A stretch of 64,000 nucleotides of DNA from a bacterium (GTDB taxonomy: Bacteria; Patescibacteriota; UBA1384; VFKW01). The DNA lies in assembly GCA_030647355.1 (NCBI GenBank), contig JAUSIS010000006.1, forward strand, positions 90,221 through 154,220, given 5' to 3'. Shown one piece after another: positions 212-23,963 of the stretch. Numbering within the stretch: the first letter of the stretch is position 1; every line of letters starts with the position of its first letter. The notes beneath the pieces are model-generated. The model was not told where the DNA came from and did not search any database. It saw only the letters and a list, made by a program, of their open reading frames with translations. Both the position numbers and the translations under genes were made by a program.

Positions 212-616
212 ATGTCTGAAGAAAAGAAAGAATTAAAGTTCAAGAAACTGGTCGACGAAATAAAAGGTTTATCAGTTATGGAACTTAGCGAACTAGTAAA
301 AAAGCTCGAAGGCGAGCTTGGTGTCAGCGCGGCTATGCCTATGGCTGCGGCCGCTCCGGCTGCAGGTGCTGTAGGAGCCGGGGAAGCTGAAGCGGAAGAG
401 AAATCAGCTTACAATGTTATAATTGCGACTGCCGGCGATCAAAAGATTGCTGTTATTAAGGCAGTCCGCGTGATCCGTCCCGATCTAGGATTGAAAGAAG
501 CCAAAGATCTAGTTGATGGAGCGCCCAAAGAAGTGAAAGCTAATGTTAAGAAAGAAGAAGCTGAAGAAGCTAAGAAAAAATTGGAAGCGGCTGGTGCTAC
601 TGTCGAACTAAAGTAG
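212..616 (+). CDS. rplL: 50S ribosomal protein L7/L12
   Basis: The translation [33 protein letters not shown]..Ala-rich hinge..[38 protein letters not shown] is the unmistakable L7/L12 signature. An SD (GGAGGA) sits 6 nt upstream. Confidence 0.95.
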
Positions 617-622
617 TTTTTT

Positions 623-701
623 GTCATGACCTCGCATTACTCGGGGAGCGTTTTCGCTTCGCTCGCACTAGCAGACTCCCCTCGTAACGCGAGGTCATGA
701 C
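623..701 (+). repeat. Long compound inverted repeat (about 13 bp arms GTCATGACCTCGC / GCGAGGTCATGAC enclosing a second imperfect IR) immediately 3' of rplL
   Basis: Read directly from the sequence: gtcatgacctcgc at 623-635 and gcgaggtcatgac at 689-701. The inner arms are cggggag at 642-648 and ctcccct at 676-682. Confidence 0.7.
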
Positions 702-718
702 TTGAGATAGGTTGGGTA

Positions 719-752
719 CTAAAAGGCCTTCGGTGAACGAAGGCCTTTTGTG
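719..752 (+). terminator. Rho-independent terminator after rplL
   Basis: aaaaggccttcg-gtgaa-cgaaggcctttt forms an 11-bp perfect stem, followed by a T-rich tract. Confidence 0.8.
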
Positions 753-787
753 TAGAATTTTTTGTTATTTTAAGGTATAATTAGGTT

Positions 788-2080
788 ATGAAATTTTCAC
801 TTACTAAAAAAATTAACAATGCGCGGATTGGAAAAATAACAACTCATCACGGCGATATAGACACTCCAGTATTTATGCCAGTGGGAACAATGGGTAGTGT
901 GAGGGCAATGAAAGGCACGGAACTGGTTGGTGTTGGCGCTCAGATTATATTAGGTAATACTTATCATCTTTATTTAAGGCCTGGGGTTGATATTTTAGAA
1001 AGATTTGGTGGTTTGCATAATTTTATGGGTTGGCATGGGCCGATTTTAACAGATAGCGGGGGATACCAAGTTTTTTCGCTTGGAAAGAGAAGTGACAGTT
1101 TCCAATCAGCAGAGGAAGGTGAGGGGTCCATTGATAGTTTTCAGGGTAATCTAGTTAGGATCACTGATGAGGGGGCGGTGTTTAAGTCGCATATTGATGG
1201 AAGCAAGCATTTATTTACCCCTGAGAAAGTAATAGATATACAGCTGGCGATTGGTTCGGATATTATGATGCCGCTGGATCATTGTCCTTCGGCTGACGCT
1301 GATGATAAGGAGATTGAGGCGGCAGTTGATTTGACGTCGAAATGGTTTGAAAGAACATGGAAGTATTTTGATAAAAAAACAAAGGAGATGGAAAAGAAAC
1401 CGGCTTTGTTTGCAATCATTCAAGGCGGAGCCAATGAGAAATTAAGAAAAAGATCGTTTGAATTTCTGTCACAATTCCTAGTGGATGGTTTCTCGATTGG
1501 CGGGGTGGCTAATGCCGGGGAGTCAAAATTAAAGCAGCAGAAAGCGCTGGAATTTACCTTACCTTTAATACCTGAAGATAAACCAAGGTATTTGATGGGG
1601 GTAGGGGAGCCGGCAGATATTATTAATGCTATCAATCAGGGTGTGGATATGTTTGATTGTGTTTTGCCGACAAGGCTGGCGAGGCACGGAGTGGCTTGGG
1701 TGAGTAGTAGTTCGTCAGATCGCTTATTGGAGAGCGTTACGCTTCCTGACGCAGTTGCTCAGGAGCGCTGCACTACGCTTGACTCTCCTCAAAGCAATCT
1801 GACGAACTTGTGGTTAGGGAAAAAGTTTGGGAAGGTTGATTTTAGAAAGAGCAGCCTGAGAGAAGGTAGTGGTCCGATTATGGAAGGTTGCGACTGCTTT
1901 GCTTGCAGGGTGCATTCGCGAGCTTATATACATCACTTAGTAAAATCTAAAGAAATTTTAGGTATTCGTTTGTTAACGGAGCATAATCTAAGGTTTGTTC
2001 TTAGGTTATTTGAGGATATAAGGCGATCTGTCGCTTGGGATAATAAGGAAGTTTTGGCAGTTGATGACAGAAGTATGTAA
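788..2080 (+). CDS. tgt: Queuine tRNA-ribosyltransferase (tRNA-guanine transglycosylase)
   Basis: The N-terminus ...GDIDTPVFMPVGTMGSVRAMKGTELVGVGAQIILGNTYHLYLRPG is typical of Tgt. The C-terminal zinc site CDCFACRVHSRAYIHHL (CxCxxC..H) is present. An unusual Ser-rich insertion precedes the zinc site. Confidence 0.9.
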   Translation: MKFSLTKKINNARIGKITTHHGDIDTPVFMPVGTMGSVRAMKGTELVGVGAQIILGNTYHLYLRPGVDILERFGGLHNFMGWHGPILTDSGGYQVFSLGKRSDSFQSAEEGEGSIDSFQGNLVRITDEGAVFKSHIDGSKHLFTPEKVIDIQLAIGSDIMMPLDHCPSADADDKEIEAAVDLTSKWFERTWKYFDKKTKEMEKKPALFAIIQGGANEKLRKRSFEFLSQFLVDGFSIGGVANAGESKLKQQKALEFTLPLIPEDKPRYLMGVGEPADIINAINQGVDMFDCVLPTRLARHGVAWVSSSSSDRLLESVTLPDAVAQERCTTLDSPQSNLTNLWLGKKFGKVDFRKSSLREGSGPIMEGCDCFACRVHSRAYIHHLVKSKEILGIRLLTEHNLRFVLRLFEDIRRSVAWDNKEVLAVDDRSM

Positions 2081-2115
2081 TTGTTTTATAATATAGGTGG
2101 TTAGGGAGGGGTCTA

Positions 2116-2541
2116 GTGCAGGATGTTTTGGCGCCTCATAATTTAGAAACTGGTGGTGTACCCACCCAGCAAGTTGAAGGTGAGAACCTAATAAAACCAG
2201 AGGGGAATTTTTCTAGTACTTTACAGAAAGAGCAGACAACTGAGCAAGAAGTGAGCCCAGAGGTAAATAAGGTAGAGGAGAGGACAGCCGAGGTCGCCGG
2301 GCAACCGATTGTACCGCCAGAGCTGACTTTGGGTTCCCAAATAGCAAGCCAGGGTGTTGATTCTTCGGAAAATAAGCCGAATCAGCCGTCGTTTTCCTAT
2401 AGTGGAACGAAGGATTTTATTAGTAAACATTATAAGGAACCTGATAAAAAGATGGCGGTTGGACCTCTATCGGTCCTACATACAGAAGTTCAGCGAATAA
2501 GAATTGCATATATACTAGCATCGAAGAAGGAAAAAGTATGA
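2116..2541 (+). CDS. Hypothetical low-complexity (Gln/Glu/Ser-rich) protein, GTG start
   Basis: The ORF lies immediately upstream (10 nt) of the first T4CP-like gene and is probably co-transcribed with it. I recognise no domain. Confidence 0.45.
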   Translation: MQDVLAPHNLETGGVPTQQVEGENLIKPEGNFSSTLQKEQTTEQEVSPEVNKVEERTAEVAGQPIVPPELTLGSQIASQGVDSSENKPNQPSFSYSGTKDFISKHYKEPDKKMAVGPLSVLHTEVQRIRIAYILASKKEKV

Positions 2542-2551
2542 AGGAGATGGA

Positions 2552-5059
2552 ATGTTAGCCACTGGAACACCTTTAATAGTCTATCTTGTTGCGATCGCTT
2601 TACTGCTGGCGGTAGTGTGGTTTGTGGTGTGGCTTGTATTGCATGCCCGTGAGGGGAAAGCTCTTAAAAATGCATTAAGTTTAGTAACGATGCAGGTGAC
2701 TATACCGAAAGAGATGGAAAAATCTTCCGAAGAGGCGGCGGCACCGCCCAAGGATTTCAAGGAACTTTTGTCAGTAGCAGAGCAGATGTTCGCCAGTTTA
2801 CATAGTGTTTTTGAAAATGGATTGAATCCCTGGATTTATGGTCAGGATAGTCTGATTTTTGAAATAATATCTAATGTGGGGCAAATAGTATTTTATGTAT
2901 CTTGTCCAGAAGGCCATCAGAAGTTGGTTGAGAGGCAAATCCATAGTTTTTATCCCGATGCGCAGATTGATATGATTGACGGTCCGAATATTTTCAATAT
3001 GGAGCAGGGGGAAGTGGTAGGGGCTAGTCTGAAGCTTGGTAAGAGGTTCGTTTATCCGATTAAGACTTATAAGATGCTGGAAAGCGATCCCTTGAATGCT
3101 ATCTCGAATGCATTTTCAAAATTAGGGGAGGGCGCTAATGCGGCTTTACAGATTGTAATTCAGCCTGCTAACCAGCGTTGGCAAATTCATACTGCGACTG
3201 CGGCTCAAGCAGTTTCTGAAGGCAAACCGATGCACGCCAGTCTAACTCCGGCGGGTCGGGTGATGTATGGGGCATTTGATGCCGTAGGTTCGGCACTAAG
3301 CAGTGCCGGGAGTGCACAAAACCAAGCGGAGCAAAAGCAGAATGAAAGGGATAACAAAATTCATCGGATCACTCCTCAACAAGAGGAGTTAATGAAGTTA
3401 TTTAATGAGAAAGGAGCAAAGGTTGGCTTCCGGACGATTGTTCGAGTGATTTCCGCAGCTCCGGATAAAAATATGGCTTGGCAGAATTGCGATAATATTT
3501 TGGCGGCATTTTCCCAATATAATCTGCCACAAGGGAATTTTTTCCGAATTATCAAACCGAGGCAGTCGGTACTGCTAACTGATTATGTACTGAAATATTT
3601 TGGTCATTGCCCCAAGATGCTTCTTAATACGGAAGAATTAGCCTCAATGTTTCATTTTCCTAATAGAAATCTGGAGACACCCAATATATTGTGGTCGCAT
3701 TCTAAATTACTCCCACCGCCTGTAACTTTGCCAAAAGAAGGGGTAGTTATTGGAAAGAGCATATATAGAGGGGAGGAAGAATTGGTGAGGATGGGTATTG
3801 AAGATAGAAGAAGGCATTTGTTTATGATTGGAAAGACCGGTGTTGGTAAGACCACTTTCTTTGAGAATATGATTTTACAGGATATTCAAGAAGGAAAGGG
3901 GCTATGCTTCATTGATCCTTTGGGGGATGCAATTGAGAGTATTTTAAAGAAGATTCCCAAGGAAAGGTCAGATGATGTTATTTTGTTTGATCCCGGGGAT
4001 GTAGATTATCCGATGGGGTTGAATCTTTTGGAGTTCAAGAACACTGAAGAACGCGACTTTTTAGTGCAAGAATGCATCGAGATGTTTTATAAATTGTTTG
4101 ATCCCAACCGAACCGGAATGGTGGGACCGCAGTTTGAGCACTGGTTTAGGAATGCTGCTTTGACCGTAATGAGTGACTCGGATGGGGGGACATTGATTGA
4201 AATACCCCGATTGTTTACGGATGACAATTTTCGAAAGCAAAAGATTGCTAAAGTAACAGATCCGATTGTGCGAGCGTTTTGGGATGAGCAATTAGCTAAA
4301 ACTTCCGATTTTCATAAGTCGGAAATGTACAATTATTTTATTTCAAAATTTGGTCGTTTTATGACCAATGATTTAATGCGGAATATTATTGGGCAGAAGA
4401 AAAGCGCTTTTAATATGCGGGAAATTATGGATAGCGGAAAGATTTTACTGATTAATTTAGCTAAAGGCAAGATTGGAGAGATTAACTCTAATTTACTGGG
4501 AATGGTAATGGTTTCAAAGATACAGATTGCGGCGTTTAGCAGGGCTGATATACCTGAAGAGACGAGGAAGGATTTCTTTTTATATGTTGATGAGTTCCAG
4601 AATTTTACAACGGATACTTTTGCCACAATTTTGTCAGAAGCGAGGAAGTATCATCTTAGTTTGAATATTACCAATCAGTATATTGCTCAACTGACTGAAA
4701 AGATACGGGATGCCGTGATCGGTAATGCCGGTACCATTGTAATATATAGAATAGGTGCGGCTGATGCGGAATTTTTGCAAAAAGAGTTGCCAAACGTCAC
4801 AATAAACGATATGGTTAACCTTGACAGATTCCAGGTTTATGTTAAATTATTAATAAATTTGACTCCTTCAAAACCCTTTAGTATGAAAGGGATTAAATCT
4901 GAAGTGGTAGAAAATGAAAGAGTTGGAGAGGTTATTAGACAATTAGTAAGATTCAAGTATGCTAAGGAAAGAACAGAAGTAGAGAGAGTGGTTCTGGGTA
5001 AGAGTTCGCTGGCAGTATCATTTCCCGAGGAACCTGGTATATCTAAGCCGACTCTGTAG
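2552..5059 (+). CDS. Membrane-anchored TrwB/TraD/VirD4-like coupling-protein family ATPase (FtsK/HerA superfamily), paralog 1
   Basis: It has an N-terminal TM helix and the Walker A motif MIGKTGVGKTT, followed about 20 aa later by CFIDPLGDA (compare TrwB VIVDPNGD). The Walker B motif is LYVDEFQNF and an Arg/Gln motif RKYHLSLNITNQ follows. The SD AAGGAGA is 5 nt upstream. Confidence 0.75.
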   Translation: MLATGTPLIVYLVAIALLLAVVWFVVWLVLHAREGKALKNALSLVTMQVTIPKEMEKSSEEAAAPPKDFKELLSVAEQMFASLHSVFENGLNPWIYGQDSLIFEIISNVGQIVFYVSCPEGHQKLVERQIHSFYPDAQIDMIDGPNIFNMEQGEVVGASLKLGKRFVYPIKTYKMLESDPLNAISNAFSKLGEGANAALQIVIQPANQRWQIHTATAAQAVSEGKPMHASLTPAGRVMYGAFDAVGSALSSAGSAQNQAEQKQNERDNKIHRITPQQEELMKLFNEKGAKVGFRTIVRVISAAPDKNMAWQNCDNILAAFSQYNLPQGNFFRIIKPRQSVLLTDYVLKYFGHCPKMLLNTEELASMFHFPNRNLETPNILWSHSKLLPPPVTLPKEGVVIGKSIYRGEEELVRMGIEDRRRHLFMIGKTGVGKTTFFENMILQDIQEGKGLCFIDPLGDAIESILKKIPKERSDDVILFDPGDVDYPMGLNLLEFKNTEERDFLVQECIEMFYKLFDPNRTGMVGPQFEHWFRNAALTVMSDSDGGTLIEIPRLFTDDNFRKQKIAKVTDPIVRAFWDEQLAKTSDFHKSEMYNYFISKFGRFMTNDLMRNIIGQKKSAFNMREIMDSGKILLINLAKGKIGEINSNLLGMVMVSKIQIAAFSRADIPEETRKDFFLYVDEFQNFTTDTFATILSEARKYHLSLNITNQYIAQLTEKIRDAVIGNAGTIVIYRIGAADAEFLQKELPNVTINDMVNLDRFQVYVKLLINLTPSKPFSMKGIKSEVVENERVGEVIRQLVRFKYAKERTEVERVVLGKSSLAVSFPEEPGISKPTL

Positions 5060-5070
5060 GGAAGGAGCAA

Positions 5071-5598
5071 ATGGTAAGTAAAAAAACAACTGGAAACAAG
5101 GCAGTTAAGAAGCCAGAAAGTTTAGTTGACTTAAAGAAGGTCCTGGATAATGCGGAAAAGCAGATACGTATTGCCAAGCAGTTGCTTTTTAAAGAGTTAT
5201 ATTGCGAGAAGGCAAAATCGCTTGAGTCTAGTGATGCTTCGGTTGAGGGTGTATTTGATGGTGTTGATATGGTTGGGTCAGATAGGAAGACCTATAAGGT
5301 GCCATCGAATTATGCCAGTAAATCAAAGTTGGTAGCCGGCGATATAATGAAACTATCAATAGATGATAAGGGAGCATATACGTATAAACAGATTGGTCCA
5401 GTTCAGCGCCAGAGATTAGTTGGTGTCCTTTGTGAGAATGAAACCGGTTATTATGCAGAATGCGAAGGCAGAGTATTTAATGTATTAGCGGCGAGTGTTA
5501 CATATTTGAAGGCAAAGGATGGAGACAGGGTTACATTGTTGGTGGCACGAGATCAAGAATGTAATTGGGCAGCCATAGATAATGTAATTTCCAGTTGA
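5071..5598 (+). CDS. Hypothetical protein sandwiched between the two T4CP-like paralogs
   Basis: The SD GGGAAGGAG precedes the ATG. The stop overlaps the TTG start of the next gene by 4 nt (TTGA), indicating translational coupling. Confidence 0.6.
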   Translation: MVSKKTTGNKAVKKPESLVDLKKVLDNAEKQIRIAKQLLFKELYCEKAKSLESSDASVEGVFDGVDMVGSDRKTYKVPSNYASKSKLVAGDIMKLSIDDKGAYTYKQIGPVQRQRLVGVLCENETGYYAECEGRVFNVLAASVTYLKAKDGDRVTLLVARDQECNWAAIDNVISS

Positions 5599-8540
5599 GT
5601 GCGGAGGTGAATATTAATTTGTTTAATCCAATAATAATATTAATAATTGGTCTTATCTTACTTGTAGTGATTGGCTTTATTATTGCTAAAATTCTACGGG
5701 ATAAGAGAAAAATCGAGGAATTTTTAGAGAAAGAATATGTCATTCTCTCAATTATGGTGCCAAAGAATAATGAAAAAACTCCACTGGCGGCCGAACAGAT
5801 GTTTGCGTCTTTGCATGGGATTTTAAAACCACAGGAGGACAAGCAAGAGCATATTAGTTTTGAGATTGCTTCTCAAGATAAATTCACTCAATTTTATGTC
5901 TGTGTGCGTAAAGAGTTGAAAGATTTTGTAGAAGGACAGATTTATGCTCAATACCCTAGTGTAGAAATAAAAGAAGTTCCGGATTATACGGGTATAGAAT
6001 TAGAAGGGATGTCGTCATATGCGACGGAGCTGACTTTAAGTAAAGAGGGTGTTTATCCGATAAAAACTTTTGAAAGTTTTGAGGTTGATCCACTGGCAGC
6101 TATTACAGGTGTTTTGTCGAAGGTTCAGGGTGATGAGCGTATTTGGATACAGATGTTGACCCGTCCGGTTGACGATAGTTGGCAGGATAAAGGCGTACAG
6201 ATCGTAAAGAATATGCGCGACGGGGTAAAAGCTGGGGGAAGTATCGGTCAGGAAATTGCCAACGCGTTTTTAATGCTTTTTAGGGAGCTTCTGATGGCGG
6301 TAGTTTCACCTCCGAAGCCTGAGGAGAAGAAGAAAGAAGATAAGGAAAAGAAAGAGGATAAAAAGTTGCCGGCACCGGTTGAAACGGCGATGGCGGGAAT
6401 CGAGACAAAGATACAAAAGCTGGGTTTTGAGACTAAAATAAGAATTATGACCGTTGCGCATGATGATGAATCAGCCAAGGCGAAGATGTTAGCTGTGATT
6501 GGAGTTTTTCGGCAATTCAATACAACTAATTTAAATAGTTTTGTTTCAGGTAAAATCGTTGATGGCGAGGAGTTACTACCTGTGTTTCAGATGAGGCCGT
6601 TTGGAGACAGAGGATATATTTTTAATATTGAAGAATTAGCTTCTATTTATCATTTTCCTCATATGTCAGTGGAGACGCCATCTATTGTTTGGGCGGGTGT
6701 AAAGAAGGGAGAACCGCCGGCGCATCTGCCAATACAGGGGATTGTTGATGATGATCATATGACAATTCTAGCCCAGACTAATTTTCGGCATCGCGAGCAG
6801 AAGTTTGGTATTAAGATGATTGACCGTCGGTTGCATATGTATAGTATTGGTAAAACTGGAACAGGGAAGTCAACGTTGATGGAAAATATGATCTATGACG
6901 ATCTTATTCGCGGTAGGGGTCTGGCGGTTGTTGATCCTCATGGTCAGACAATTGATCATATATTGAAATTTATACCAGAAGAAAGAATGAAGGATGTAGT
7001 GTACCTAAATCCGGCTGATCAAAGTTGTCCAATAGGTTTTAATCTATTGGAAAGTGTTGAGGCGGACCAAAAGAACATTATGGCTTCTGGGCTCATGAGT
7101 GTGTTTCTGAAACTATGGGAAGGGACATTCAGTGCCAGAATGGAATATATATTAAGGAATACCATTTTAGCATTAATTGATTATCCTAGAGCGACGATGC
7201 TCGGAATCATGAGGGTTTTGAATGATAAAAATTACCGCAAGATGATTTTATCTTACGTGAAGGATCCTGTAATTCTGGATTTTTTCTATAATGAGTACGA
7301 GAAGTATGATCCTAAATTTCGTACGGAAGCAATTGCGCCTATTCAGAACAAAGTCGGGCAATTCTTGTCATCGAGTACGATCAGAAATATTGTAGGTCAA
7401 GAGAAATCTACGATCAATATCTCTGAAATCATGAATAATGGAAAGATTCTTTTGGTTGATTTATCGGTGGGAAAGATCGGTGAGGATAACTCAACACTAC
7501 TGGGTTCCATGATGATTACTAAAATCCAGCTGGCTGCGATGCAAAGGGCGCATGTGCCGGAAGAAGAGAGGCGTGACTTTTATCTATATGTGGATGAATT
7601 CCAAAATTTTGCCACCGAATCCTTTGCTACTATTCTGTCTGAAGCAAGAAAATATCATTTAAATCTAACTCTGACAAATCAATATACGGCGCAGGTTGAT
7701 GAGAAAGTCATGGATGCAATTATGGGTAATATTGGAACCATGGTGGCATTTAGAGTCGGGGCACCAGATGCCGATCTGCTTGCCAAAGAGTTTGAGCCGG
7801 TATTTGAGACGACAGATTTGATTAACCAGCCCAACAGACATATATATATCAAAATGGCAATTGACGGTGTGACTTGTCCGGCTTTTTCAGCCGATACATT
7901 GCCACCTCGAGTATTGGAAAAGAGTTTTGGGGATGAAGCAATCGAATTTTCCCAGACGACATATGGTAGGCCGCGCGATGAGGTTGAGCAGGAGATTAAT
8001 GATTATATGAGTGAGGATATTGAGGAAGCAGTCAAGGAACTTGATCCAGTTATGGCAGAACTTCGTCAGGAATATAAGGAGATATCTATTAAAGGCGGTT
8101 ATAAGTGGTATCTGGGGGCAGGGGAAGAGGGGACAGATGAGGAGCTTATGGAGGAACCTATTAATGACGACAATAACGCCGGGGCGGATGAAACAGATAG
8201 TTCAAACCTGGTAAGCGATGATACCGAGATGGTTGCTCAAGATAGTGTTGGTCAAGATATGCCACAGGATAGTAGTCACATTATCTCCAGTCAGCTGGCT
8301 AATAAAATTGCCAAGAAGGCTAGGAAGAGAAACAGAAATAAAGAAAAGAAGAAGGCATTATCTGCTCAAGAGCAATTAGCTAATCAGGGTGAACTTTCTC
8401 CAGTTCAGATATCTCCAGATAGTATTAATATGCCCCCAGAGTCTACGCAGTCTACCCATTTACCTCAAACAGGATCTCATCATGGGCACCATACGACTAT
8501 CCTCGAAGAAGGAGAGACCGTAGACCTGAAGAATAACTAA
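5595..8540 (+). CDS. Membrane-anchored TrwB/VirD4-like coupling-protein family ATPase, paralog 2, with a long acidic/basic low-complexity C-terminal tail
   Basis: The motifs are SIGKTGTGKST, AVVDPHGQT, LYVDEFQNF and RKYHLNLTLTNQ. It shares the N-terminal blocks EQMFASLH and YPIKT.E..E.DPL with paralog 1. A KPEEKKKEDKEKKEDKK insert is present. The C-terminal ~190 aa are disordered (DEEL..DDNNAGADETDSS...KKARKRNRNKEKKK). Confidence 0.75.
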   Translation: MSAEVNINLFNPIIILIIGLILLVVIGFIIAKILRDKRKIEEFLEKEYVILSIMVPKNNEKTPLAAEQMFASLHGILKPQEDKQEHISFEIASQDKFTQFYVCVRKELKDFVEGQIYAQYPSVEIKEVPDYTGIELEGMSSYATELTLSKEGVYPIKTFESFEVDPLAAITGVLSKVQGDERIWIQMLTRPVDDSWQDKGVQIVKNMRDGVKAGGSIGQEIANAFLMLFRELLMAVVSPPKPEEKKKEDKEKKEDKKLPAPVETAMAGIETKIQKLGFETKIRIMTVAHDDESAKAKMLAVIGVFRQFNTTNLNSFVSGKIVDGEELLPVFQMRPFGDRGYIFNIEELASIYHFPHMSVETPSIVWAGVKKGEPPAHLPIQGIVDDDHMTILAQTNFRHREQKFGIKMIDRRLHMYSIGKTGTGKSTLMENMIYDDLIRGRGLAVVDPHGQTIDHILKFIPEERMKDVVYLNPADQSCPIGFNLLESVEADQKNIMASGLMSVFLKLWEGTFSARMEYILRNTILALIDYPRATMLGIMRVLNDKNYRKMILSYVKDPVILDFFYNEYEKYDPKFRTEAIAPIQNKVGQFLSSSTIRNIVGQEKSTINISEIMNNGKILLVDLSVGKIGEDNSTLLGSMMITKIQLAAMQRAHVPEEERRDFYLYVDEFQNFATESFATILSEARKYHLNLTLTNQYTAQVDEKVMDAIMGNIGTMVAFRVGAPDADLLAKEFEPVFETTDLINQPNRHIYIKMAIDGVTCPAFSADTLPPRVLEKSFGDEAIEFSQTTYGRPRDEVEQEINDYMSEDIEEAVKELDPVMAELRQEYKEISIKGGYKWYLGAGEEGTDEELMEEPINDDNNAGADETDSSNLVSDDTEMVAQDSVGQDMPQDSSHIISSQLANKIAKKARKRNRNKEKKKALSAQEQLANQGELSPVQISPDSINMPPESTQSTHLPQTGSHHGHHTTILEEGETVDLKNN

Positions 8541-8541
8541 A

Positions 8542-8802
8542 TTATTCTTCGCCGAGGGCTCTTTTTCCAGCCTCAATTAGTTTTTTGACTCTTTGTCCGC
8601 CTAAGCGGCCAACTTTGCCACTACGGATATCTTCGGCGTTAGCACGTATACTGCCGCCTTTTTTACCGATTGCCTCGTAGAATTCTTTGCCATATCTCTT
8701 CTTGACAATGTTGCCGCCTTTTTTACCGGCTTCCTGGACAGTCATCCCGCCTTTGGATGGAGTCTGCCTGGAAGATGTAGTAGGTCTCATATATGCCTCC
8801 AA
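8542..8802 (-). CDS. KGG-repeat general stress protein (YciG/GsiB-like)
   Basis: The protein has repeated KGG-containing units (KKGGNIVKKRYGKEFYEAIGKKGGSI). The DNA carries a matching direct repeat gccgccttttttaccg at 8651-8666 and 8712-8727. Confidence 0.75.
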   Translation of the reverse strand: MEAYMRPTTSSRQTPSKGGMTVQEAGKKGGNIVKKRYGKEFYEAIGKKGGSIRANAEDIRSGKVGRLGGQRVKKLIEAGKRALGEE

Positions 8803-9341
8803 TTACTTATTACAGGGTTAATTATATTAAGCTATTAGTTGAGAAGCATTAGCTAAATTGGCAATTAGGTCAATAGTTATGGGTATATTTATGTAGGAAG
8901 CAATAGGGTTAAAATAATACTCATCAATTTAATATATTATTGTGCGACGTATTAAAAGCCTCTGTGTTAGTTTTTTAGGTAGAGAAGTGTGCTTTTTCAC
9001 CTGTTAATTTTTTTTAAAAAAAAAGTAGGGGAGCGTTAGGCGGGGAGACCCCTATTTGAAAAAATAGGGAATTGTGCGCAACTGGTTTTGGGGTGGGCTT
9101 TGACGGGAAAGTTGGCGGAGAAGTGTGTAAAAGCACATTTTAGTAACTATTTATGTATTGGTTAATTCCTATAATTCAAAAGACCTAACTTACTATAATG
9201 TCGCAAAAGATATATTGTGCGACAATTCAAATCACGAGAATCACTCTATCTTCTGGTTTACTAATGACATCTATAAATTTTGGGACATAGTAAATAGCTT
9301 GGGGGGCTTGCTCTCCCCTGTTCCCTGGTATGATGTGTCAG

Positions 9342-9725
9342 TTATTCGAGTTCTGCTTTGGCTTTTAGTCTCGTTTCAACTTCCTTTTTACCCATAAATC
9401 GGGATAAAAAGAAATACCTAATGATCCCAATATTGTTTAGCATTCTTATAGTAAAGGCAACTATAATGGCAAGATACAGGTCAATTCCTAATCTATCACC
9501 GAGGAATGTAATAATTATAGCTAGGAACATATTAGTAATTAAACCTGAAACAAAGACCGTTGCATTGTAGCGACCTTGTAGATCTCCTCTTATAGCGCCA
9601 AAAACCGAGTCAAGGATTCCCATAATTCCGACAGCGGTATACCTGGCGTATTCAATTGGAATAGTTAAGGGGGTATAAATCCCGAGGATGATACCTATGG
9701 CAAGCCCAATTAACCCATACCACAT
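9342..9725 (-). CDS. Small three-TM basic membrane protein, DUF1290/Sbp-like
   Basis: It is 127 aa with three hydrophobic segments and a central ...IRGDLQGRYNATVFVSGLITN...FLGDRLGIDLYLA..F.IR..NNI.IIR pattern reminiscent of the Sbp family. This family call is from memory only. Confidence 0.5.
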   Translation of the reverse strand: MWYGLIGLAIGIILGIYTPLTIPIEYARYTAVGIMGILDSVFGAIRGDLQGRYNATVFVSGLITNMFLAIIITFLGDRLGIDLYLAIIVAFTIRMLNNIGIIRYFFLSRFMGKKEVETRLKAKAELE

Positions 9726-17515: not shown

Positions 17516-18397
17516 CTATTTTTTTTGCCATTTGTATTTCCCTTTTGCGTCCGGTCGAATCTTCTGGATAGTTAGCATGACCTCTTCGCTTTTATCCAGG
17601 GAGACTTTGCGGATAGCTTCCCCATTTGTTCCGACTATCAGTTTTTCTGTGATGGTCATCACAAGAACTTTCTGGGAAGCCGGAAACATGATGGATTGGC
17701 CGTCGTCTTTGACCCCGACCTTTAACGAACGTGTTGTTGTTGAGGCCCTGGCTGTTTGAACACTGCCGCCAATCTCGACGACCTCAATTCCGACTTTGGC
17801 ACTGCTTTCCTGGGCGATGGAGACGCTGTCGGCGAGTTGGAATAGGGCTTCTGCGGAGTCGCCCTTGGCAAACATGTTGATCATCCTACTTACCGTGCCG
17901 ACCGGCTTGATCACTTCAGTTTGCTTTTTGGTGACTTTTGGCACGATCTTGAGGTAGTAGTTCCCGGTTCCTGTTGGGTGCCCTTTCTCATACATAGAGA
18001 TATGGATGTGATTGAGACCGATTCGAGAGTTGGTTGTGAACCGATTTTCCACACCAGTCTCACCAGTCAGCGAAGAATACCATTTCAGTGAATAATGGTG
18101 AGACTGGGAAATCACTGTGCCGGTGATTGGCATGAACACCTGAAACGAACGACTTCCAGTCCAGCGGTCCCATGTTCCCTGCCCCGAGACACCATATCCG
18201 GTGCCATTAGAGTTGTAGCGAGAGATGACGCCGATGCATTTGATGAGCAAATGCTGGGAGTTAACCAGTCGTATAGCATCCTCAAAAGTGAGCTTGTATA
18301 CGCTGGGTATTAGATCGACCTTGCGGTCGGCGGCGAATGCCGCGATGTTAAGTTGCGTGGAAACCAGTACTACCAGAATCCAAAATGACTTTCTCAA
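17516..18397 (-). CDS. Hypothetical secreted protein (signal peptide), GC-rich gene, controlled by GEMM-like leader copy 1
   Basis: TTG start with SD AGGAGGA 6 nt upstream. The N-terminus MRKSFWILVVLVSTQLNIAAFA is a signal peptide. GC content is clearly above the local background. Confidence 0.7.
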   Translation of the reverse strand: MRKSFWILVVLVSTQLNIAAFAADRKVDLIPSVYKLTFEDAIRLVNSQHLLIKCIGVISRYNSNGTGYGVSGQGTWDRWTGSRSFQVFMPITGTVISQSHHYSLKWYSSLTGETGVENRFTTNSRIGLNHIHISMYEKGHPTGTGNYYLKIVPKVTKKQTEVIKPVGTVSRMINMFAKGDSAEALFQLADSVSIAQESSAKVGIEVVEIGGSVQTARASTTTRSLKVGVKDDGQSIMFPASQKVLVMTITEKLIVGTNGEAIRKVSLDKSEEVMLTIQKIRPDAKGKYKWQKK

Positions 18398-18453: not shown

Positions 18454-18699
18454 AAAAAAACTTCTTCCGAAGCTTCTTTGTGAGTACGTATTGAAGTTCG
18501 GCAACCCGGCGACCATTCCAGCTCTTTCAATGAAAGGGCTGGATTAGGCCCGTGGTTTTGCCCCGATGTCGGATTTTGTCCGGATCGGAGTCCCTTATCC
18601 TTCCGAAGAAGGGTGATGGGACGTCATCGCCTTTCGACGACTTTGCCTTTATCGACTTGTTAACAGGATTATTTTAGCACTTTTGCGCCTGTTTGTCAA
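18454..18699 (-). promoter_or_regulatory. GEMM (c-di-GMP-I)-like structured 5' leader, copy 1: promoter, conserved domain and intrinsic terminator
   Basis: On the minus strand the -35 TTGACA (18694-18699) is followed by 17 nt and the -10 TAAAAT (18671-18676). A conserved domain (about 18499-18654) is roughly 90% identical to copy 2. The terminator AAGAAGCUUCGGAAGAAG plus U7 lies at 18454-18479. The SD and TTG start of the 17516..18397 gene follow. Confidence 0.5.
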
Positions 18700-21274: not shown

Positions 21275-22014
21275 TTAAACCACTGGTACAATACCGCGTG
21301 TTGTTGATGATATAAATGCTTCGGTAGCTTCTTTTAATTCTATAAGATTCACAGGTCGCTCGGCGATTTTGAAATCTTGTGCCAGCTTTAATATTAAATT
21401 TCGCCTCGTGCCCTGAAGAATGTCTTTTTTGGGAGTTATTAATTCGTTACCTCGGAAAATAAAGAAATTGAAAGTTGTGCCTTCGAGAATTTTATCGTGC
21501 CAAGTATAAATAATGTCATAGGCATTTTTCTTTTTTATCAACTTTTGCGGCTTAGCATCGTAAGATAGTTAGTGGATTTTGCTTCTGGCTTTGTGCGTAA
21601 GTACTCGTGGGTGATTAGTTTGACGCCTTTTTGATAGATTTCTGGAGCATGGATGGGCAGTGAAGCGGCGGTGACGAAGAAGGTGGGGGTTTTGCTGTCG
21701 AAGTGTGTGCCGTCCGGGCTTTCGCCCCCGGAAAGAAAGAGTCGAATTCCAGCATCGGGAAGATTATTTTTTTGGATTAATTTTAATATTAAACTTTCGA
21801 TTTGGTGGTTGGTGAGAGGGATTCTCAGGTTTAATTTTTTTGCGGAATTGGCAAAGCGTTTGAGATGTTTGTCCAAGAGCAATGGTTTGCTGTTGTGGCT
21901 TCGCAGGAAATCAAAAACGGCGTAGCCGCGCAGCAAGCCGATATCATTAATTGATATTTGGGCATTATGAACGGGGATGATTTTGCCGTTTGAATAGCAG
22001 TATTGTGGTTTCAT
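21275..22014 (-). pseudogene. Class IV (branched-chain/D-amino-acid) aminotransferase split by a frameshift at an A6/T6 homopolymer
   Basis: The N-terminal fragment (21538..22014) ends ...KSTNYLTMLSRKS*. The C-terminal fragment (21275..21541) continues ...KKKNAYDIIYTWHDKILEGTTFNFFIF...TRGIVPV. Together they cover the full fold-type IV aminotransferase. The two frames overlap 4 nt at the run ttttttatca (21531-21540). Confidence 0.7.
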
Positions 22015-23214: not shown

Positions 23215-23682
23215 TTAATCGATTGCCCAGATATTAACATAGGCTTCGATTATTAGTCGCATAGCGGCGATAGCGGAGTTGCGGGTGTGGAGGCAGAGAT
23301 TGGCAAGCCGAGCTTCAAATTCTTCATAGAACTCGGGCGAGTGCTCCCAGTCAATGTAACGTGCGAGCATGTTTCGCTGAAATTCTGTATCGCAGAGGCG
23401 GTCAAGATATGTATCGTACTGCGCCCACTCGACGGTCGGGATTCTGCCCCCATTTGCTGACCAGAGGGCTAGGGCAAACATGTTGACGACACGCAGGAAG
23501 CTGTCGTGTTCATATTGGCCGCCCGAGCCATCGCTAATCCCGCTTGCACCTATTGCGCATTCTTTTGCTAGGCCCATGAGCCAAGAGTGGAAACGGGGCG
23601 AAGTGCCCTTGATGAGATCGAGGGCATTGAGCCTGCTGTCTTTTGCGGTCTTGGTGTCTTTCTTGTCAATTTTAAGCGACAT
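23215..23682 (-). CDS. Hypothetical protein (GC-rich), controlled by GEMM-like leader copy 2
   Basis: ATG start with SD GGGAGGA upstream; no domain recognised. Confidence 0.6.
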   Translation of the reverse strand: MSLKIDKKDTKTAKDSRLNALDLIKGTSPRFHSWLMGLAKECAIGASGISDGSGGQYEHDSFLRVVNMFALALWSANGGRIPTVEWAQYDTYLDRLCDTEFQRNMLARYIDWEHSPEFYEEFEARLANLCLHTRNSAIAAMRLIIEAYVNIWAID

Positions 23683-23734: not shown

Positions 23735-23963
23735 GAAACAAATACACCAACCGGAGCTGGTGTATTTGCGAGAACCATCCGGCAACCCGGCTGCCATCCA
23801 AGCTTTTTCAACGAAAGAGCTGGATTAGGCCCGTGGCTTTGCCCCGATGTCGGATTTTGTCCGGATCGGAGTCCCCTGAGGAACGTCATCGTCTTTCGAC
23901 GACTTTGCCTTTATCGGGTTTTTAATATAAGCGTATTTTAGCACAAAATATGGGATTTGTCAA
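23735..23963 (-). promoter_or_regulatory. GEMM (c-di-GMP-I)-like structured 5' leader, copy 2: promoter, conserved domain and intrinsic terminator
   Basis: On the minus strand the -35 TTGACA (23958-23963) is followed by 17 nt and TG-n-TAAAAT (23935-23940). The conserved domain is at 23779-23918. The terminator-like hairpin AAAUACACCAGCUCCGGUUGGUGUAUUU plus GUUUC is at 23735-23768. The SD and ATG of 23215..23682 follow. Confidence 0.5.

What the first reader, a model, noticed from the sequence alone, without database searches (positions are those of the whole stretch)
2116..8540. Tandem paralogous membrane-anchored TrwB/VirD4-like (T4CP) ATPases with an intervening coupled small gene
The two large proteins (835 and 981 aa) share N-terminal blocks: a TM helix, EQMFASLH, and YPIKT.E..E.DPL. 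They have the same ATPase core: Walker A GKTG(V/T)GK(T/S)T, then (C/A)(F/V)(I/V)DP(L/H)G(D/Q), then Walker B LYVDEFQNF, then RKYHL.L..TNQ. That is the type IV coupling-protein pattern (compare TrwB VIVDPNGD). No other type IV secretion component (VirB4/VirB11/relaxase/pilins) is visible in the window. Paralog 2 carries a ~190-aa disordered acidic-then-basic tail and a KE-repeat insert. The middle 175-aa gene overlaps the TTG start of paralog 2 (TTGA), which argues the cluster is one operon. It could be a DNA-uptake, DNA-export or protein-translocation ATPase pair peculiar to reduced-genome lineages.
Basis: partly seen in the sequence, partly recalled or inferred. Interest (0 to 1): 0.6.

Follow-up and report, generated by a model that had tools for sequence, protein, structure and literature searches.

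The report
Paired orphan T4SS coupling-type ATPases in CPR
This is a conserved four-gene cluster from an ultra-small (Patescibacteria/CPR) bacterium: two anciently diverged, membrane-anchored motor ATPases of the conjugation "coupling protein" type, a predicted nucleic-acid-binding partner and a small disordered protein, all far from any secretion machinery; its more conserved ATPase appears, by synteny, to match a gene scored as essential in the only Patescibacteria transposon-sequencing essentiality data I consulted.

Summary
ORFs 2116-2541 (141 aa), 2552-5059 (835 aa, par1), 5071-5598 (175 aa) and 5595-8540 (981 aa, par2) exist, and every quoted motif is present. par1 and par2 are 36% identical over 762 aa, which rules out an assembly duplication. 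Profile comparison places both ATPases with TrwB/VirD4/DotL coupling proteins (hhalign to TrwB: 96.5% probability, 273 columns). They do not group with VirB4, FtsK or HerA. Each has one N-terminal membrane helix and a ~330-aa DUF8128 domain (PF26449). par1 orthologues occur across all sampled CPR classes. par2 forms a separate, deep clade. The 175-aa protein models confidently as a helix plus two OB-fold barrels. It sits directly after par1 in 5 of 5 independent look-ups. By synteny, the par1 orthologue in Southlakia epibionticum (SEML1_0142) and its small upstream ORF are called essential in published Tn-seq data, while the par2-type gene (SEML1_0293) is not. A canonical FtsK is present there too. 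Full-length homologues exist in Bacillus jumbo phages. In phage G the homologue lies next to VirB4-like, VirB6/TrbL-like and Replic_Relax genes. Most likely these are genuine, unlinked coupling-type translocases. Their substrate and any docking to the T4SS are not shown.

The parts
2064..2092 (+). Promoter-like site (ATGACA-17-TATAAT, 11 of 12). It is followed by GGGAGGGG at 2104-2111, just before the GTG start of the first gene.
   Evidence: This is a consensus match only. It is the best-scoring site in 600-9400.
2116..2541 (+). p141: a small, acidic/Pro/Gln-rich, probably disordered protein. It is conserved in position but diverges very fast in sequence.
   Evidence: ORF, with no Pfam, NCBIfam or PHROG hit. 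A same-strand small ORF (median 148 aa) ends a median of 9 nt before par1 in 57 of 76 loci. p141 is only 15-34% identical to its positional counterparts in genomes whose par1 is 77% identical. The positional counterpart in S. epibionticum (SEML1_0141) has no insertions after selection. A polar effect on the downstream gene is possible.
2552..5059 (+). par1: a DUF8128 plus T4CP-type ATPase of 835 aa. Features: membrane helix about residues 8-30 (nt 2573-2641); alpha/beta N-terminal domain about residues 44-366 (nt 2681-3649); Walker A at nt 3830-3856; all-alpha insertion about residues 500-628; Walker B at nt 4580-4606; RKYHL motif at nt 4643-4678.
   Evidence: Orthologues were found at 599 sites in the species-representative genome set, covering Berkelbacteria, Saccharibacteria, Microgenomatia groups, Doudnabacteria, Gracilibacteria and Peregrinibacteria. 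All ATPase motifs are intact in all 89 aligned family members.
5071..5598 (+). p175: an N-terminal helix (residues 15-49) followed by two tandem OB-fold (S1/cold-shock-like) barrels. It has an invariant NYASKSKLVxGD loop (nt 5308-5334). It is a predicted single-stranded nucleic-acid binder.
   Evidence: The AF2 model has pLDDT 90 and pTM 0.79. Foldseek matches RNase R/II cold-shock domains, ribosomal S1, eIF1A, the RsgA OB domain and RPA. At least 7963 homologues were found, with no Pfam family. It lies immediately downstream of par1 in 5 of 5 look-ups that started from p175 homologues, and in L003, L005-L009 and L047.
5595..8540 (+). par2: a divergent paralogue of 981 aa (973 aa if it starts at the TTG at 5619). 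Features: membrane helix about residues 11-33; Walker A at nt 6849-6875; Walker B at nt 7584-7610; KE-rich insert at nt 6309-6365 in the loop that is disordered in par1; a 192-aa acidic-then-basic tail (nt 7962-8537) with three conserved islands at nt 8058-8129, 8277-8327 and 8499-8531.
   Evidence: par2-type proteins form a clade outside all par1 orthologues in a midpoint-rooted NJ tree. The tail islands are conserved in L090, L091 and L083 while the rest of the tail varies.
8556..8573 (+). Weak terminator-like hairpin 16 nt after the par2 stop codon.
   Evidence: The number of such sites in the region is not above the shuffle expectation, so this is only suggestive.

Best explanation
The cluster encodes two anciently diverged members of a distinct subclass of type IV coupling proteins (the VirD4/TrwB/TraD family).

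**Architecture (shown).** Each protein has a single N-terminal membrane helix, a ~330-residue alpha/beta DUF8128 domain, and a RecA-like motor with the all-alpha insertion typical of coupling proteins.

**Mechanism (inferred).**
- By analogy with TrwB, each protein assembles into a membrane-tethered hexameric ring that uses ATP to thread a substrate towards a membrane channel.
- par1 is the pan-CPR core motor. Together with its small upstream partner it is probably essential.
- par2 is an accessory motor. Its long tail carries conserved short motifs that probably recruit partners, as the TraD and DotL tails do.
- The 175-aa tandem OB-fold protein most likely binds a single-stranded nucleic acid, or an extended polymer, and presents it to the motor.
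- The most likely channel partner is the chromosomal, monoderm-type Patescibacteria T4SS (VirB4, VirB6, VirB3, VirB8, TrsD, pilins), encoded elsewhere in the genome. That cluster in S. epibionticum lacks a coupling protein of its own.

**What is shown and what is not.**
- Shown: domain architecture, motif conservation, the paralogue split and gene order.
- Taken from published Tn-seq data through a synteny inference: essentiality.
- Inferred: hexamer formation, the substrate, and docking to the T4SS.
For: **Family assignment**
- Pfam T4CP families score at or above their gathering scores.
- hhalign to TrwB gives 96.5% probability and E 1e-9 over 273 columns.
- In Foldseek, TrwB aligns with TM 0.64 and rmsd about 5 A, and Cag-beta also matches.
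- DotL and TrwB are the only significant PDB sequence hits.
- The AF2 model (pLDDT 81) shows a membrane helix, an alpha/beta N-terminal domain, a RecA core and a helical insertion at residues 500-628.

**Selection and age**
- All motifs are intact in all 89 aligned members.
- par1 orthologues occur at 599 sites in the species-representative genome set.
- par2 forms a separate deep clade.

**Conserved module**
- The order small ORF, par1, p175, (Sigma70_r4/HARE-HTH gene), par2 recurs in L081-L084 and L087-L091.

**Link to T4SS genes**
- In Bacillus phage G the full-length homologue gp156 matches the N-terminal-domain profile at 99.3% probability, E 2e-20.
- gp156 lies directly after a VirB4-like ATPase (P-loop_TraG, AAA_10), two genes after a TrbL_4/VirB6-like protein, and near a Replic_Relax protein.

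**Essentiality**
- In S. epibionticum Tn-seq, SEML1_0142 is called ES/ES/ES, with 114 input insertions falling to 11, 11 and 9.
- SEML1_0141, just upstream, drops to zero insertions.
- The T4SS cluster is also essential and has no recognisable coupling protein (PMC10633639).
- SEML1_0142 matches the par1-type loci L061 and L065 in gene order: YifB-type ATPase upstream on the opposite strand, two small ORFs, the ATPase gene, and, in L061 only, gyrB downstream (the L065 fragment ends at par1).

**Prevalence**
- T4CP homologues occur in 2,918 of 3,035 Patescibacteria genomes (PMC12102498).
Against: - No T4SS gene lies in this 64-kb window.
- Only 148 of 5,713 Patescibacteria T4CP homologues lie near virB4, and relaxases are rare, 109 in 103 genomes.
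- T4CP homologues are detected in more genomes (96%) than VirB4 (80%). Draft incompleteness and the two-copy state could explain that gap.
- The proteins have one membrane helix instead of the usual two.
- NCBIfam TraD and VirD4 equivalog models score far below their cut-offs, for example 54 bits against 366.
- The DUF8128 domain has no counterpart in characterised T4CPs.
- The phage association with VirB4 and TrbL rests on one phage. Nachito shows no VirB4 annotated within 7 kb.
- Orthology of SEML1_0142 with par1 is inferred from synteny and annotation, not from a sequence comparison.
- The OB-fold assignment of p175 rests on a predicted structure and modest Foldseek E-values (best 4e-4).
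Confidence: 0.5

Rival explanations
1. The cluster is a T4SS-independent nucleic-acid translocation machine. The DUF8128 ATPases, the OB-fold protein and the small upstream protein would form a self-contained membrane motor. It would move DNA or RNA across or along the membrane on its own or with a non-T4SS channel, for example for import of host nucleic acid, export, or another housekeeping DNA transaction.
For: - The genes are unlinked to virB4 in nearly all genomes, and the authors of PMC12102498 themselves raise exaptation.
- T4CP homologues are more prevalent than VirB4, 96% against 80%.
- The cluster sits in stable housekeeping synteny, between rplJ/rplL/tgt and secDF here and in L083, L089, L090 and L091.
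- The partner p175 is a tandem OB-fold protein.
- A Sigma70_r4/HARE-HTH DNA-binding gene is often inserted before par2.
- In Microgenomatia loci the neighbours include nrdR, RNR, a XerC/D-type recombinase and DivIC/FtsB.
Against: - A single membrane helix per subunit is unlikely to form a channel alone.
- The phage G homologue sits inside a VirB6, VirB4 and relaxase-like module.
- comEC deletion abolishes transformation but is viable in S. epibionticum, whereas SEML1_0142 is essential. An uptake-for-competence role therefore would not explain essentiality (PMC12857230 summarising PMC10633639).
- No other neighbouring gene recurs across classes: the most frequent neighbour families occur in at most about 23 of 81 loci, apart from the positionally conserved small upstream ORF.
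Confidence: 0.28
2. The ATPases are FtsK-like chromosome segregation or dimer-resolution translocases that replace or back up FtsK at division.
For: - They belong to the same FtsK-HerA superfamily and are membrane anchored.
- XerC/D-type recombinase and DivIC genes lie within a few genes of par1 in about 22 Microgenomatia loci.
- ftsZ and ftsA lie in the same window at 40.8-43.2 kb (by eye).
Against: - S. epibionticum has a canonical, essential FtsK: SEML1_0096, with PF01580, gamma, alpha and 4TM domains.
- The family profile matches the FtsK motor only around the P-loop, and there is no PF01580 hit.
- There is no gamma/KOPS-reading domain.
- The Xer/DivIC linkage is confined to related lineages and is absent in this window.
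Confidence: 0.05
3. The proteins are membrane-anchored protein or polymer translocases or unfoldases. They would deliver proteins rather than nucleic acid, as the coupling proteins DotL and VirD4 do for effectors.
For: - Coupling proteins also translocate proteins (established knowledge of VirD4 and DotL).
- Relaxases are nearly absent from Patescibacteria.
- The par2 tail carries conserved short motifs, like the adaptor-binding tails of DotL and TraD.
- Wang et al. suggest that the S. epibionticum T4SS may export proteins.
Against: - The conserved partner is an OB-fold protein of the nucleic-acid-binding type.
- The phage relatives sit next to Replic_Relax nickase-like genes.
Confidence: 0.12
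4. The cluster is a relic of a mobile element (ICE or prophage) or a component of an anti-phage defence system (MADS-like).
For: - The PADLOC model mad8 matches both ATPase domains, with E 2e-16 and 2e-17.
- PHROG phrog_5156 matches the full length.
- Homologues exist in phages.
Against: - There is no integrase, relaxase or other MADS gene nearby.
- GC content matches the flanks.
- The position between ribosomal-protein/tgt genes and secDF is conserved across genomes whose par1 proteins share roughly 45-79% identity with this one.
- The family is nearly universal in the phylum.
- The par1 orthologue is essential.
Confidence: 0.03

Closest known systems
TrwB (R388), VirD4, TraD and DotL type IV coupling proteins
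   Same: - They share a RecA-like motor with Walker A and B, the all-alpha insertion between them and the RKxxL/Q block.
- They share an N-terminal membrane anchor.
- par2 has an acidic C-terminal extension.
- They are the best sequence and profile matches. The motor alone superposes with TM 0.64.
   Different: - These proteins have one membrane helix instead of two.
- A ~330-aa DUF8128 domain lies between anchor and motor and has no counterpart in TrwB.
- There is no linked relaxase or mating-pair genes.
- The genes are inherited vertically as chromosomal housekeeping-like genes.
- They come as two deep paralogues.
- Scores against the curated TraD and VirD4 equivalog models are far below their cut-offs.
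Bacillus phage G gp156, 0305phi8-36 ORF201 and Nachito homologue (PHROG phrog_5156, function unknown)
   Same: - They share the same full-length architecture, DUF8128 domain included.
- In phage G the gene is adjacent to VirB4-like and TrbL/VirB6-like genes and near a Replic_Relax gene.
   Different: - Identity is only 20-24%.
- The genes are phage-borne and single-copy.
- No p175-type partner was looked for systematically.
- No function has been demonstrated for any of them.
VirB4/TrwK
   Same: - VirB4 has the same overall plan: an N-terminal domain of about 400 aa plus a C-terminal FtsK/HerA-type ATPase, about 800 aa in total.
- It is the top full-length Foldseek hit (E 1e-16).
   Different: - The global TM-score is only 0.28-0.31, with rmsd 16-18 A.
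- Profile comparison finds nothing beyond the P-loop.
- No VirB4 Pfam family is hit.
SEML1_0142 and SEML1_0293 of Southlakia epibionticum ML1 (Wang et al. 2023, Table S1/S2)
   Same: - There are two T4CP-like genes.
- One has a small essential ORF just upstream, in the same gene order as the par1-type loci L061 and L065.
- The other is preceded by a Sigma70_r4/HARE-HTH gene, as par2 is in L003, L087 and L088.
   Different: - The two genes are unlinked in that genome.
- No p175-type gene is adjacent.
- Orthology is inferred, not aligned.

Membership tests
Type IV coupling protein (VirD4/TrwB/TraD) | RecA-like nucleotide-binding domain with Walker A and Walker B | tested here: met
   GKTGxGK[ST]T and LYVDEFQNF are present in both proteins. 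They are conserved in all 89 aligned family members.
Type IV coupling protein (VirD4/TrwB/TraD) | All-alpha domain inserted between Walker A and Walker B | tested here: met
   The model shows eight helices at residues 500-628. The hhalign alignment to TrwB runs through TrwB 117-393, which includes its all-alpha domain. PF10412 scores 24.6 and 35.7 bits against a gathering score of 20.5. This rests on prediction, not a solved structure.
Type IV coupling protein (VirD4/TrwB/TraD) | N-terminal transmembrane anchor (typically two helices) | tested here: inconclusive
   There is one hydrophobic helix per protein (par1 residues 8-30, par2 11-33), followed by basic residues. An anchor is present, but with one helix rather than two.
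Type IV coupling protein (VirD4/TrwB/TraD) | Genetic linkage to VirB4/mating-pair genes and a relaxase | tested here: not met
   None is found in the 64-kb window. In the literature only 148 of 5,713 lie near virB4. The feature is met for the phage G homologue.
Type IV coupling protein (VirD4/TrwB/TraD) | Hexameric ring with DNA-dependent ATPase activity that couples substrate to the channel | not testable with these tools
   This needs biochemistry or multimer modelling.
Type IV coupling protein (curated NCBIfam equivalogs TraD and VirD4-like CD1115) | Score above the curated cut-off | tested here: not met
   The best score is 54.3 bits against a cut-off of 366 (TIGR03743). The others are lower.
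DUF8128 (PF26449) | Match to the Pfam model at the N-terminus | tested here: met
   Precomputed PF26449 hits are recorded on this very protein (P0001, P0241) and on all listed homologues. The local Pfam copy lacks the model. With the N-terminal domain alone as query, 1,973 cluster representatives matched at E<=0.001; in the 150 listed the match begins near the N-terminus.
VirB4 | VirB4-type N-terminal domain and ATPase (CagE_TrbE_VirB, P-loop_TraG, AAA_10) | tested here: not met
   No such Pfam hit was found. hhalign to TrwK gives 1.3% for the full length and 0.3% for the N-terminal domain. Foldseek full-length similarity exists, but with TM about 0.3.
FtsK/SpoIIIE | FtsK_SpoIIIE motor (PF01580), four membrane helices at the N-terminus, gamma domain | tested here: not met
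   There is no PF01580 hit. hhalign to the E. coli FtsK motor covers only 57 columns around the P-loop at 36% probability. A separate canonical FtsK exists in a cultivated relative.
HerA | HAS-barrel plus DUF87 ATPase, with a NurA partner | tested here: not met
   DUF87 scores 18.3 bits in par2, below the gathering score of 23.2, and gives no hit in par1. There is no NurA-like neighbour.
MADS defence system (mad8) | The mad8-type ATPase together with the other mad genes in one operon | tested here: not met
   The mad8 model matches the ATPase domains, with E 2e-16 and 2e-17. The other cluster proteins hit no PADLOC model.

The most novel reading that the evidence does not exclude
par1, its small upstream partner and the tandem OB-fold protein form a Patescibacteria-wide, essential membrane machine that moves nucleic acid independently of the T4SS. 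One possibility is feeding host-derived or self nucleic acid through a non-T4SS route. That would make it a new functional class within the FtsK-HerA/T4CP superfamily, with phage relatives, rather than a displaced conjugation part.
Probability: 0.25. Interest if true: 0.85.

Novelty: new variant of a known kind. Interest (0 to 1): 0.55.

Why it matters
Patescibacteria make up a large share of bacterial diversity and depend on host cells. How material passes between epibiont and host is an open question.

**The coupling-protein gap.** The essential T4SS cluster of S. epibionticum was reported to lack a coupling protein. A later survey treated "the" T4CP homologue as dispensable and possibly exapted. 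The analysis here changes that reading:
- There are two deep paralogues.
- The more conserved one, with its small upstream gene, appears essential.
- The dispensable one is the tail-bearing accessory copy.
- A conserved OB-fold partner points to a nucleic-acid or extended-polymer substrate.
- Phage relatives place this subclass next to VirB4 and VirB6 genes.

**What this makes testable.** The genetically tractable Saccharibacteria can now be used to test specific candidates: SEML1_0141, SEML1_0142 and SEML1_0293.

**What it would mean.** If the link to the T4SS holds, the missing energising component is found. If it does not, an essential, phylum-wide translocase of unknown role remains to be explained.

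Tried and rejected
**Explanations rejected**
1. *FtsK replacement.* A canonical essential FtsK exists in S. epibionticum, and the profile match to the FtsK motor is limited to the P-loop.
3. *HerA.* DUF87 is below threshold.
4. *Defence system.* mad8 hits the ATPase domains, but there is no other MADS component, and the MADS preprint gave no domain information for mad8.
5. *Mobile-element relic or assembly duplication.* Rejected and on the conserved gene order.

**Searches that led nowhere**
- The N-terminal-domain profile found nothing among PDB sequences.
- The p175 profile found no significant PDB sequence match.
- p141 has no detectable homologues by phmmer or an iterated HMM in the fetched loci, and alignment of the positional counterparts shows almost no conservation.
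- P0001 could not be looked up by exact sequence.
- The first R388 accession tried was not held.
- The full-text search for DUF8128 found no paper.
- No FtsK homologue was present in the fetched loci, but that sample is too small to mean anything.

**A caution on labels.** Record titles such as "Gammaproteobacteria", "Bathyarchaeia" or "Nitrospirota" on some loci are probably mislabelled CPR contigs, to judge from the gene neighbourhoods of those I could check (for example L057 and L062); this was not tested systematically. They were not counted as evidence for a wider distribution.

Full report
**1. What is in the sequence**

Four same-strand ORFs fill 2116-8540:
- p141, 2116-2541, with a GTG start.
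- par1, 2552-5059, 835 aa.
- p175, 5071-5598.
- par2, 5595-8540, 981 aa if the first TTG is used.

The gaps between genes are 10 and 11 nt, followed by either a 4-nt overlap or a 20-nt gap. The best promoter-like site in 600-9400 is ATGACA-17-TATAAT at 2064-2092 (11 of 12). It sits just before a GGGAGGGG and the p141 start.

par1 and par2 are 36% identical over 762 aa. They share only one 72-nt DNA stretch at 75% identity, so the duplication is old.

The par2 start is ambiguous. NCBI's protein is 973 aa, which means the TTG at 5619, downstream of a GGAGG. Relatives start 8-12 nt after the stop of the p175 gene and have slightly longer N-termini.

The surrounding genes are ordinary chromosomal genes: rplL, tgt, secDF, manC, gmk, nrdR with a class II RNR, ftsZ/ftsA and rarA. 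GC content is uniform. Pfam scans of 20 unassigned ORFs found no T4SS component.

**2. Which family the ATPases belong to**

- *Pfam.* TrwB_AAD_bind, TraG-D_C and, for par1, T4SS-DNA_transf score at or just above their gathering scores. There is no FtsK_SpoIIIE hit, and DUF87 is below threshold.
- *NCBIfam.* The TraD and VirD4 models are the top hits but score far below their cut-offs.
- *PDB sequences.* The single proteins hit TrwB and DotL. The family profile hits DotL and TrwB.
- *Profile comparison with a 12-sequence family alignment.*
  - TrwB: 96.5% probability, E 1e-9, 273 columns running from Walker A through the all-alpha domain to the RKY block.
  - E. coli FtsK motor: 36%, 57 columns around the P-loop.
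  - R388 VirB4/TrwK: 1.3%, 34 columns.
- *AF2 model of par1* (pLDDT 81, pTM 0.69). It has a long N-terminal helix at 8-42, an alpha/beta domain at 44-366 with a disordered loop at 230-270 (the site of the KE insert in par2), a RecA-type core, and an eight-helix insertion at 500-628.
- *Foldseek against the PDB*.
  - TrwB aligns with TM 0.64 and rmsd about 5 A over the motor. Cag-beta and HerA follow.
  - The lowest E-values go to full-length VirB4/TrwK, but with TM about 0.3 and rmsd 16-18 A.
  - The N-terminal-domain profile finds nothing in VirB4 or elsewhere in the PDB.
  - I therefore treat the VirB4 resemblance as unresolved and do not count it as membership.
- *The N-terminal domain.* The precomputed Pfam annotation names it DUF8128, PF26449. 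With that domain alone as query, 1,973 cluster representatives matched at E<=0.001. In the 150 listed the match begins near the N-terminus, and the full-length ones are about 750-1,700 aa.

**3. Distribution, age and the module**

par1 orthologues were found at 599 sites in the species-representative genome set. They include Saccharibacteria, Doudnabacteria, Levy-, Woese-, Roizman-, Gottesman-, Curtiss-, Davies- and Shapirobacteria, Gracilibacteria and Peregrinibacteria, and Berkelbacteria. All 89 aligned members keep Walker A, IDPHG, Walker B and EARKY...NQ intact.

A midpoint-rooted NJ tree places all par2-type proteins in one clade outside every par1 orthologue. That clade holds the window's par2, the L001-L003 copies, L081B, L083B and the second copy of L060. 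The method is simple, and long-branch effects are possible.

par2-type proteins are numerous, 850-1,200 aa long and have variable tails. Within the tail three islands are conserved...ELRQEYKEISIKGGYKWYLGAGEE, HIISSxxANKxAKKARK and the terminal ILEEGExVxLK.

p175 belongs to a family of at least 7,963 proteins with no Pfam model. Its AF2 model (pLDDT 90) is a helix plus two OB barrels. Foldseek matches RNase R/II cold-shock domains, S1, eIF1A, the RsgA OB domain and RPA.

Five of five look-ups that started from diverse p175 homologues found par1 immediately upstream. Four of the five loci also had par2 downstream, directly or after small genes; in the fifth (L088) and in the second P0152 place (L081) par2 followed a Sigma70_r4/HARE-HTH gene or an HTH gene. 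secDF usually converges on the cluster. The closest relatives repeat the window's order exactly.

In Microgenomatia and several other classes only par1 lies at the fetched locus. A small same-strand ORF (median 148 aa, ending a median of 9 nt before par1) precedes par1 in 57 of 76 loci. Its sequence changes so fast that homology cannot be shown.

**4. Evidence from the literature**

- Quinonero-Coronel et al. 2025 (PMC12102498) counted 5,713 VirD4-type T4CP homologues in 2,918 of 3,035 Patescibacteria genomes. Only 148 lie near virB4, and there are only 109 relaxases. VirB4 is present in 2,417 genomes. They noted that the homologue in S. epibionticum is not essential and might be exapted.
- Their Table S3 shows hits to the t4cp2 profile in pairs 1-6 genes apart. 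That is the arrangement seen here.
- Wang et al. 2023 (PMC10633639) state that the essential S. epibionticum T4SS cluster lacks recognisable coupling and relaxase proteins.
- Their Tables S1 and S2 list:

| Locus | Annotation | Tn-seq result |
|---|---|---|
| SEML1_0096 | canonical FtsK | essential |
| SEML1_0141 | 420-bp ORF just upstream of 0142 | 9 input insertions, then none |
| SEML1_0293 | "T4SS DNA-binding domain-containing"; PF10412, PF12696, PF01935 | NE/NE/NE |
| SEML1_0294 | Sigma70_r4/HARE-HTH gene, just upstream of 0293 | essential |

- Neither ATPase gene is discussed in the main text of that paper.

**5. The orthology inference**

- The gene order around SEML1_0142 is: a YifB-type ATPase on the opposite strand, a small membrane ORF, a ~140-aa ORF, the ATPase, two opposite-strand genes, then gyrB.
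- L061 shows the same order. L065 shows the upstream part only, because the fragment ends at par1. Their ATPases score as par1-type and fall in the par1 clade.
- The pairing of SEML1_0294 with SEML1_0293 mirrors the HARE-HTH-then-par2 order in L003, L087 and L088.
- The Pfam pattern with DUF87 is typical of par2-type proteins and is not seen in par1-type proteins.
- I conclude, by inference, that the essential gene is the par1 orthologue and the dispensable one is par2-type.

**6. Relatives outside CPR**

- PHROG phrog_5156 (function unknown) matches both proteins end to end, with E 2e-87 and 3e-89.
- tblastn finds full-length homologues in Bacillus phages G, Nachito and 0305phi8-36.
- The N-terminal-domain profile matches phage G gp156 at 99.3% probability, E 2e-20, over 315 columns.
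- In phage G, gp156 directly follows gp155 (P-loop_TraG, AAA_10, DUF87, so VirB4-like). It lies two genes after gp153 (TrbL_4, VirB6-like) and near gp146 (Replic_Relax).
- In 0305phi8-36 the homologue abuts a weak Replic_Relax protein that scores below the gathering threshold.
- Nachito shows no such neighbours in its annotation.

**7. Interpretation**

The proteins are members of the coupling-protein branch of the FtsK-HerA superfamily. They form a distinct subclass, defined by one membrane helix plus DUF8128.

- *Best supported mechanism.* A membrane-tethered ring ATPase feeds a substrate to a channel. The substrate is probably a single-stranded nucleic acid, to judge from the OB-fold partner.
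- *Evidence that favours the chromosomal Patescibacteria T4SS as that channel.* The phage G context, the missing coupling protein in the S. epibionticum T4SS cluster, and the essentiality of both that T4SS and the par1 orthologue.
- *Evidence that keeps a T4SS-independent role alive.* The lack of linkage to virB4, the scarcity of relaxases, and the housekeeping synteny.
- *On prevalence.* The gap between T4CP and VirB4 prevalence may be an artefact of draft completeness and copy number.
- *Rivals judged unlikely.* FtsK-replacement, HerA, defence-system and mobile-relic readings.

**8. Verdict**

- The family is already annotated and has been counted, so it is not categorically new.
- New here:
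  - the split into a core, probably essential, paralogue and an accessory tail-bearing one;
  - the conserved OB-fold partner;
  - the positionally conserved small upstream gene;
  - the phage relatives that sit beside VirB4 and VirB6 genes.

Noticed in passing
window 23778-23919 (-) and 18497-18657 (-): Two c-di-GMP-I riboswitch matches score above the gathering threshold (48.4 and 47.3 bits against 35). Each lies upstream of an ORF with no Pfam hit: 23215-23682 (155 aa) and 17516-18397 (293 aa).
   Followed up: no
window 8542-8802 (-): An 86-aa Gly/Lys-rich ORF converges on par2. It matches Pfam SASP (alpha/beta-type small acid-soluble spore protein) at 26.2 bits against a gathering score of 22. 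A similar small ORF with a faint SASP hit holds the same position in L090 and L091.
   Followed up: partly
window 21275-22014 (-): Two adjacent ORFs (158 and 88 aa) read by eye like the two halves of one class-IV aminotransferase. This could be a frameshift or a pseudogene.
   Followed up: no
window 55641-56945 (-) and about 57-58 kb: An ORF with an HTH N-terminus looks by eye like an IS-type transposase. It sits next to the point where GC skew changes sign, positive up to about 56 kb and negative after 58 kb.
   Followed up: no
P0205 (homologue of window 5071-5598): A member of the p175 family is named '50S ribosomal protein L7/L12' in an NCBI record. The family has no similarity to L7/L12, so this is a mis-annotation.
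   Followed up: partly
L003 12817-13857; L087 2830-3861; L088 8564-9592: A ~345-aa Sigma70_r4 plus HARE-HTH protein is often inserted between the p175 gene and par2. Its counterpart in S. epibionticum (SEML1_0294, annotated RpoS) lies directly upstream of the par2-type gene and is essential. It is absent from the cluster in this window.
   Followed up: partly
L013-L057 (Microgenomatia-type loci): The small ORF upstream of par1 in about 22 loci forms one detectable family. It has a disordered N-terminus and a C-terminal amphipathic motif, S.RWLAEWC.R.LK. nrdR, a class II RNR and a cobalamin adenosyltransferase lie upstream. A XerC/D-type recombinase and DivIC lie downstream.
   Followed up: partly
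L092 (Bacillus phage G 84946-99066): This jumbo phage carries a compact set of conjugation-like genes: TrbL_4/VirB6-like gp153, VirB4-like gp155, the DUF8128-T4CP gp156 and Replic_Relax gp146. gp156 is annotated there as 'MsbA-like permease'.
   Followed up: partly
window 1-64000: ARAGORN finds no tRNA gene anywhere in the 64 kb.
   Followed up: no
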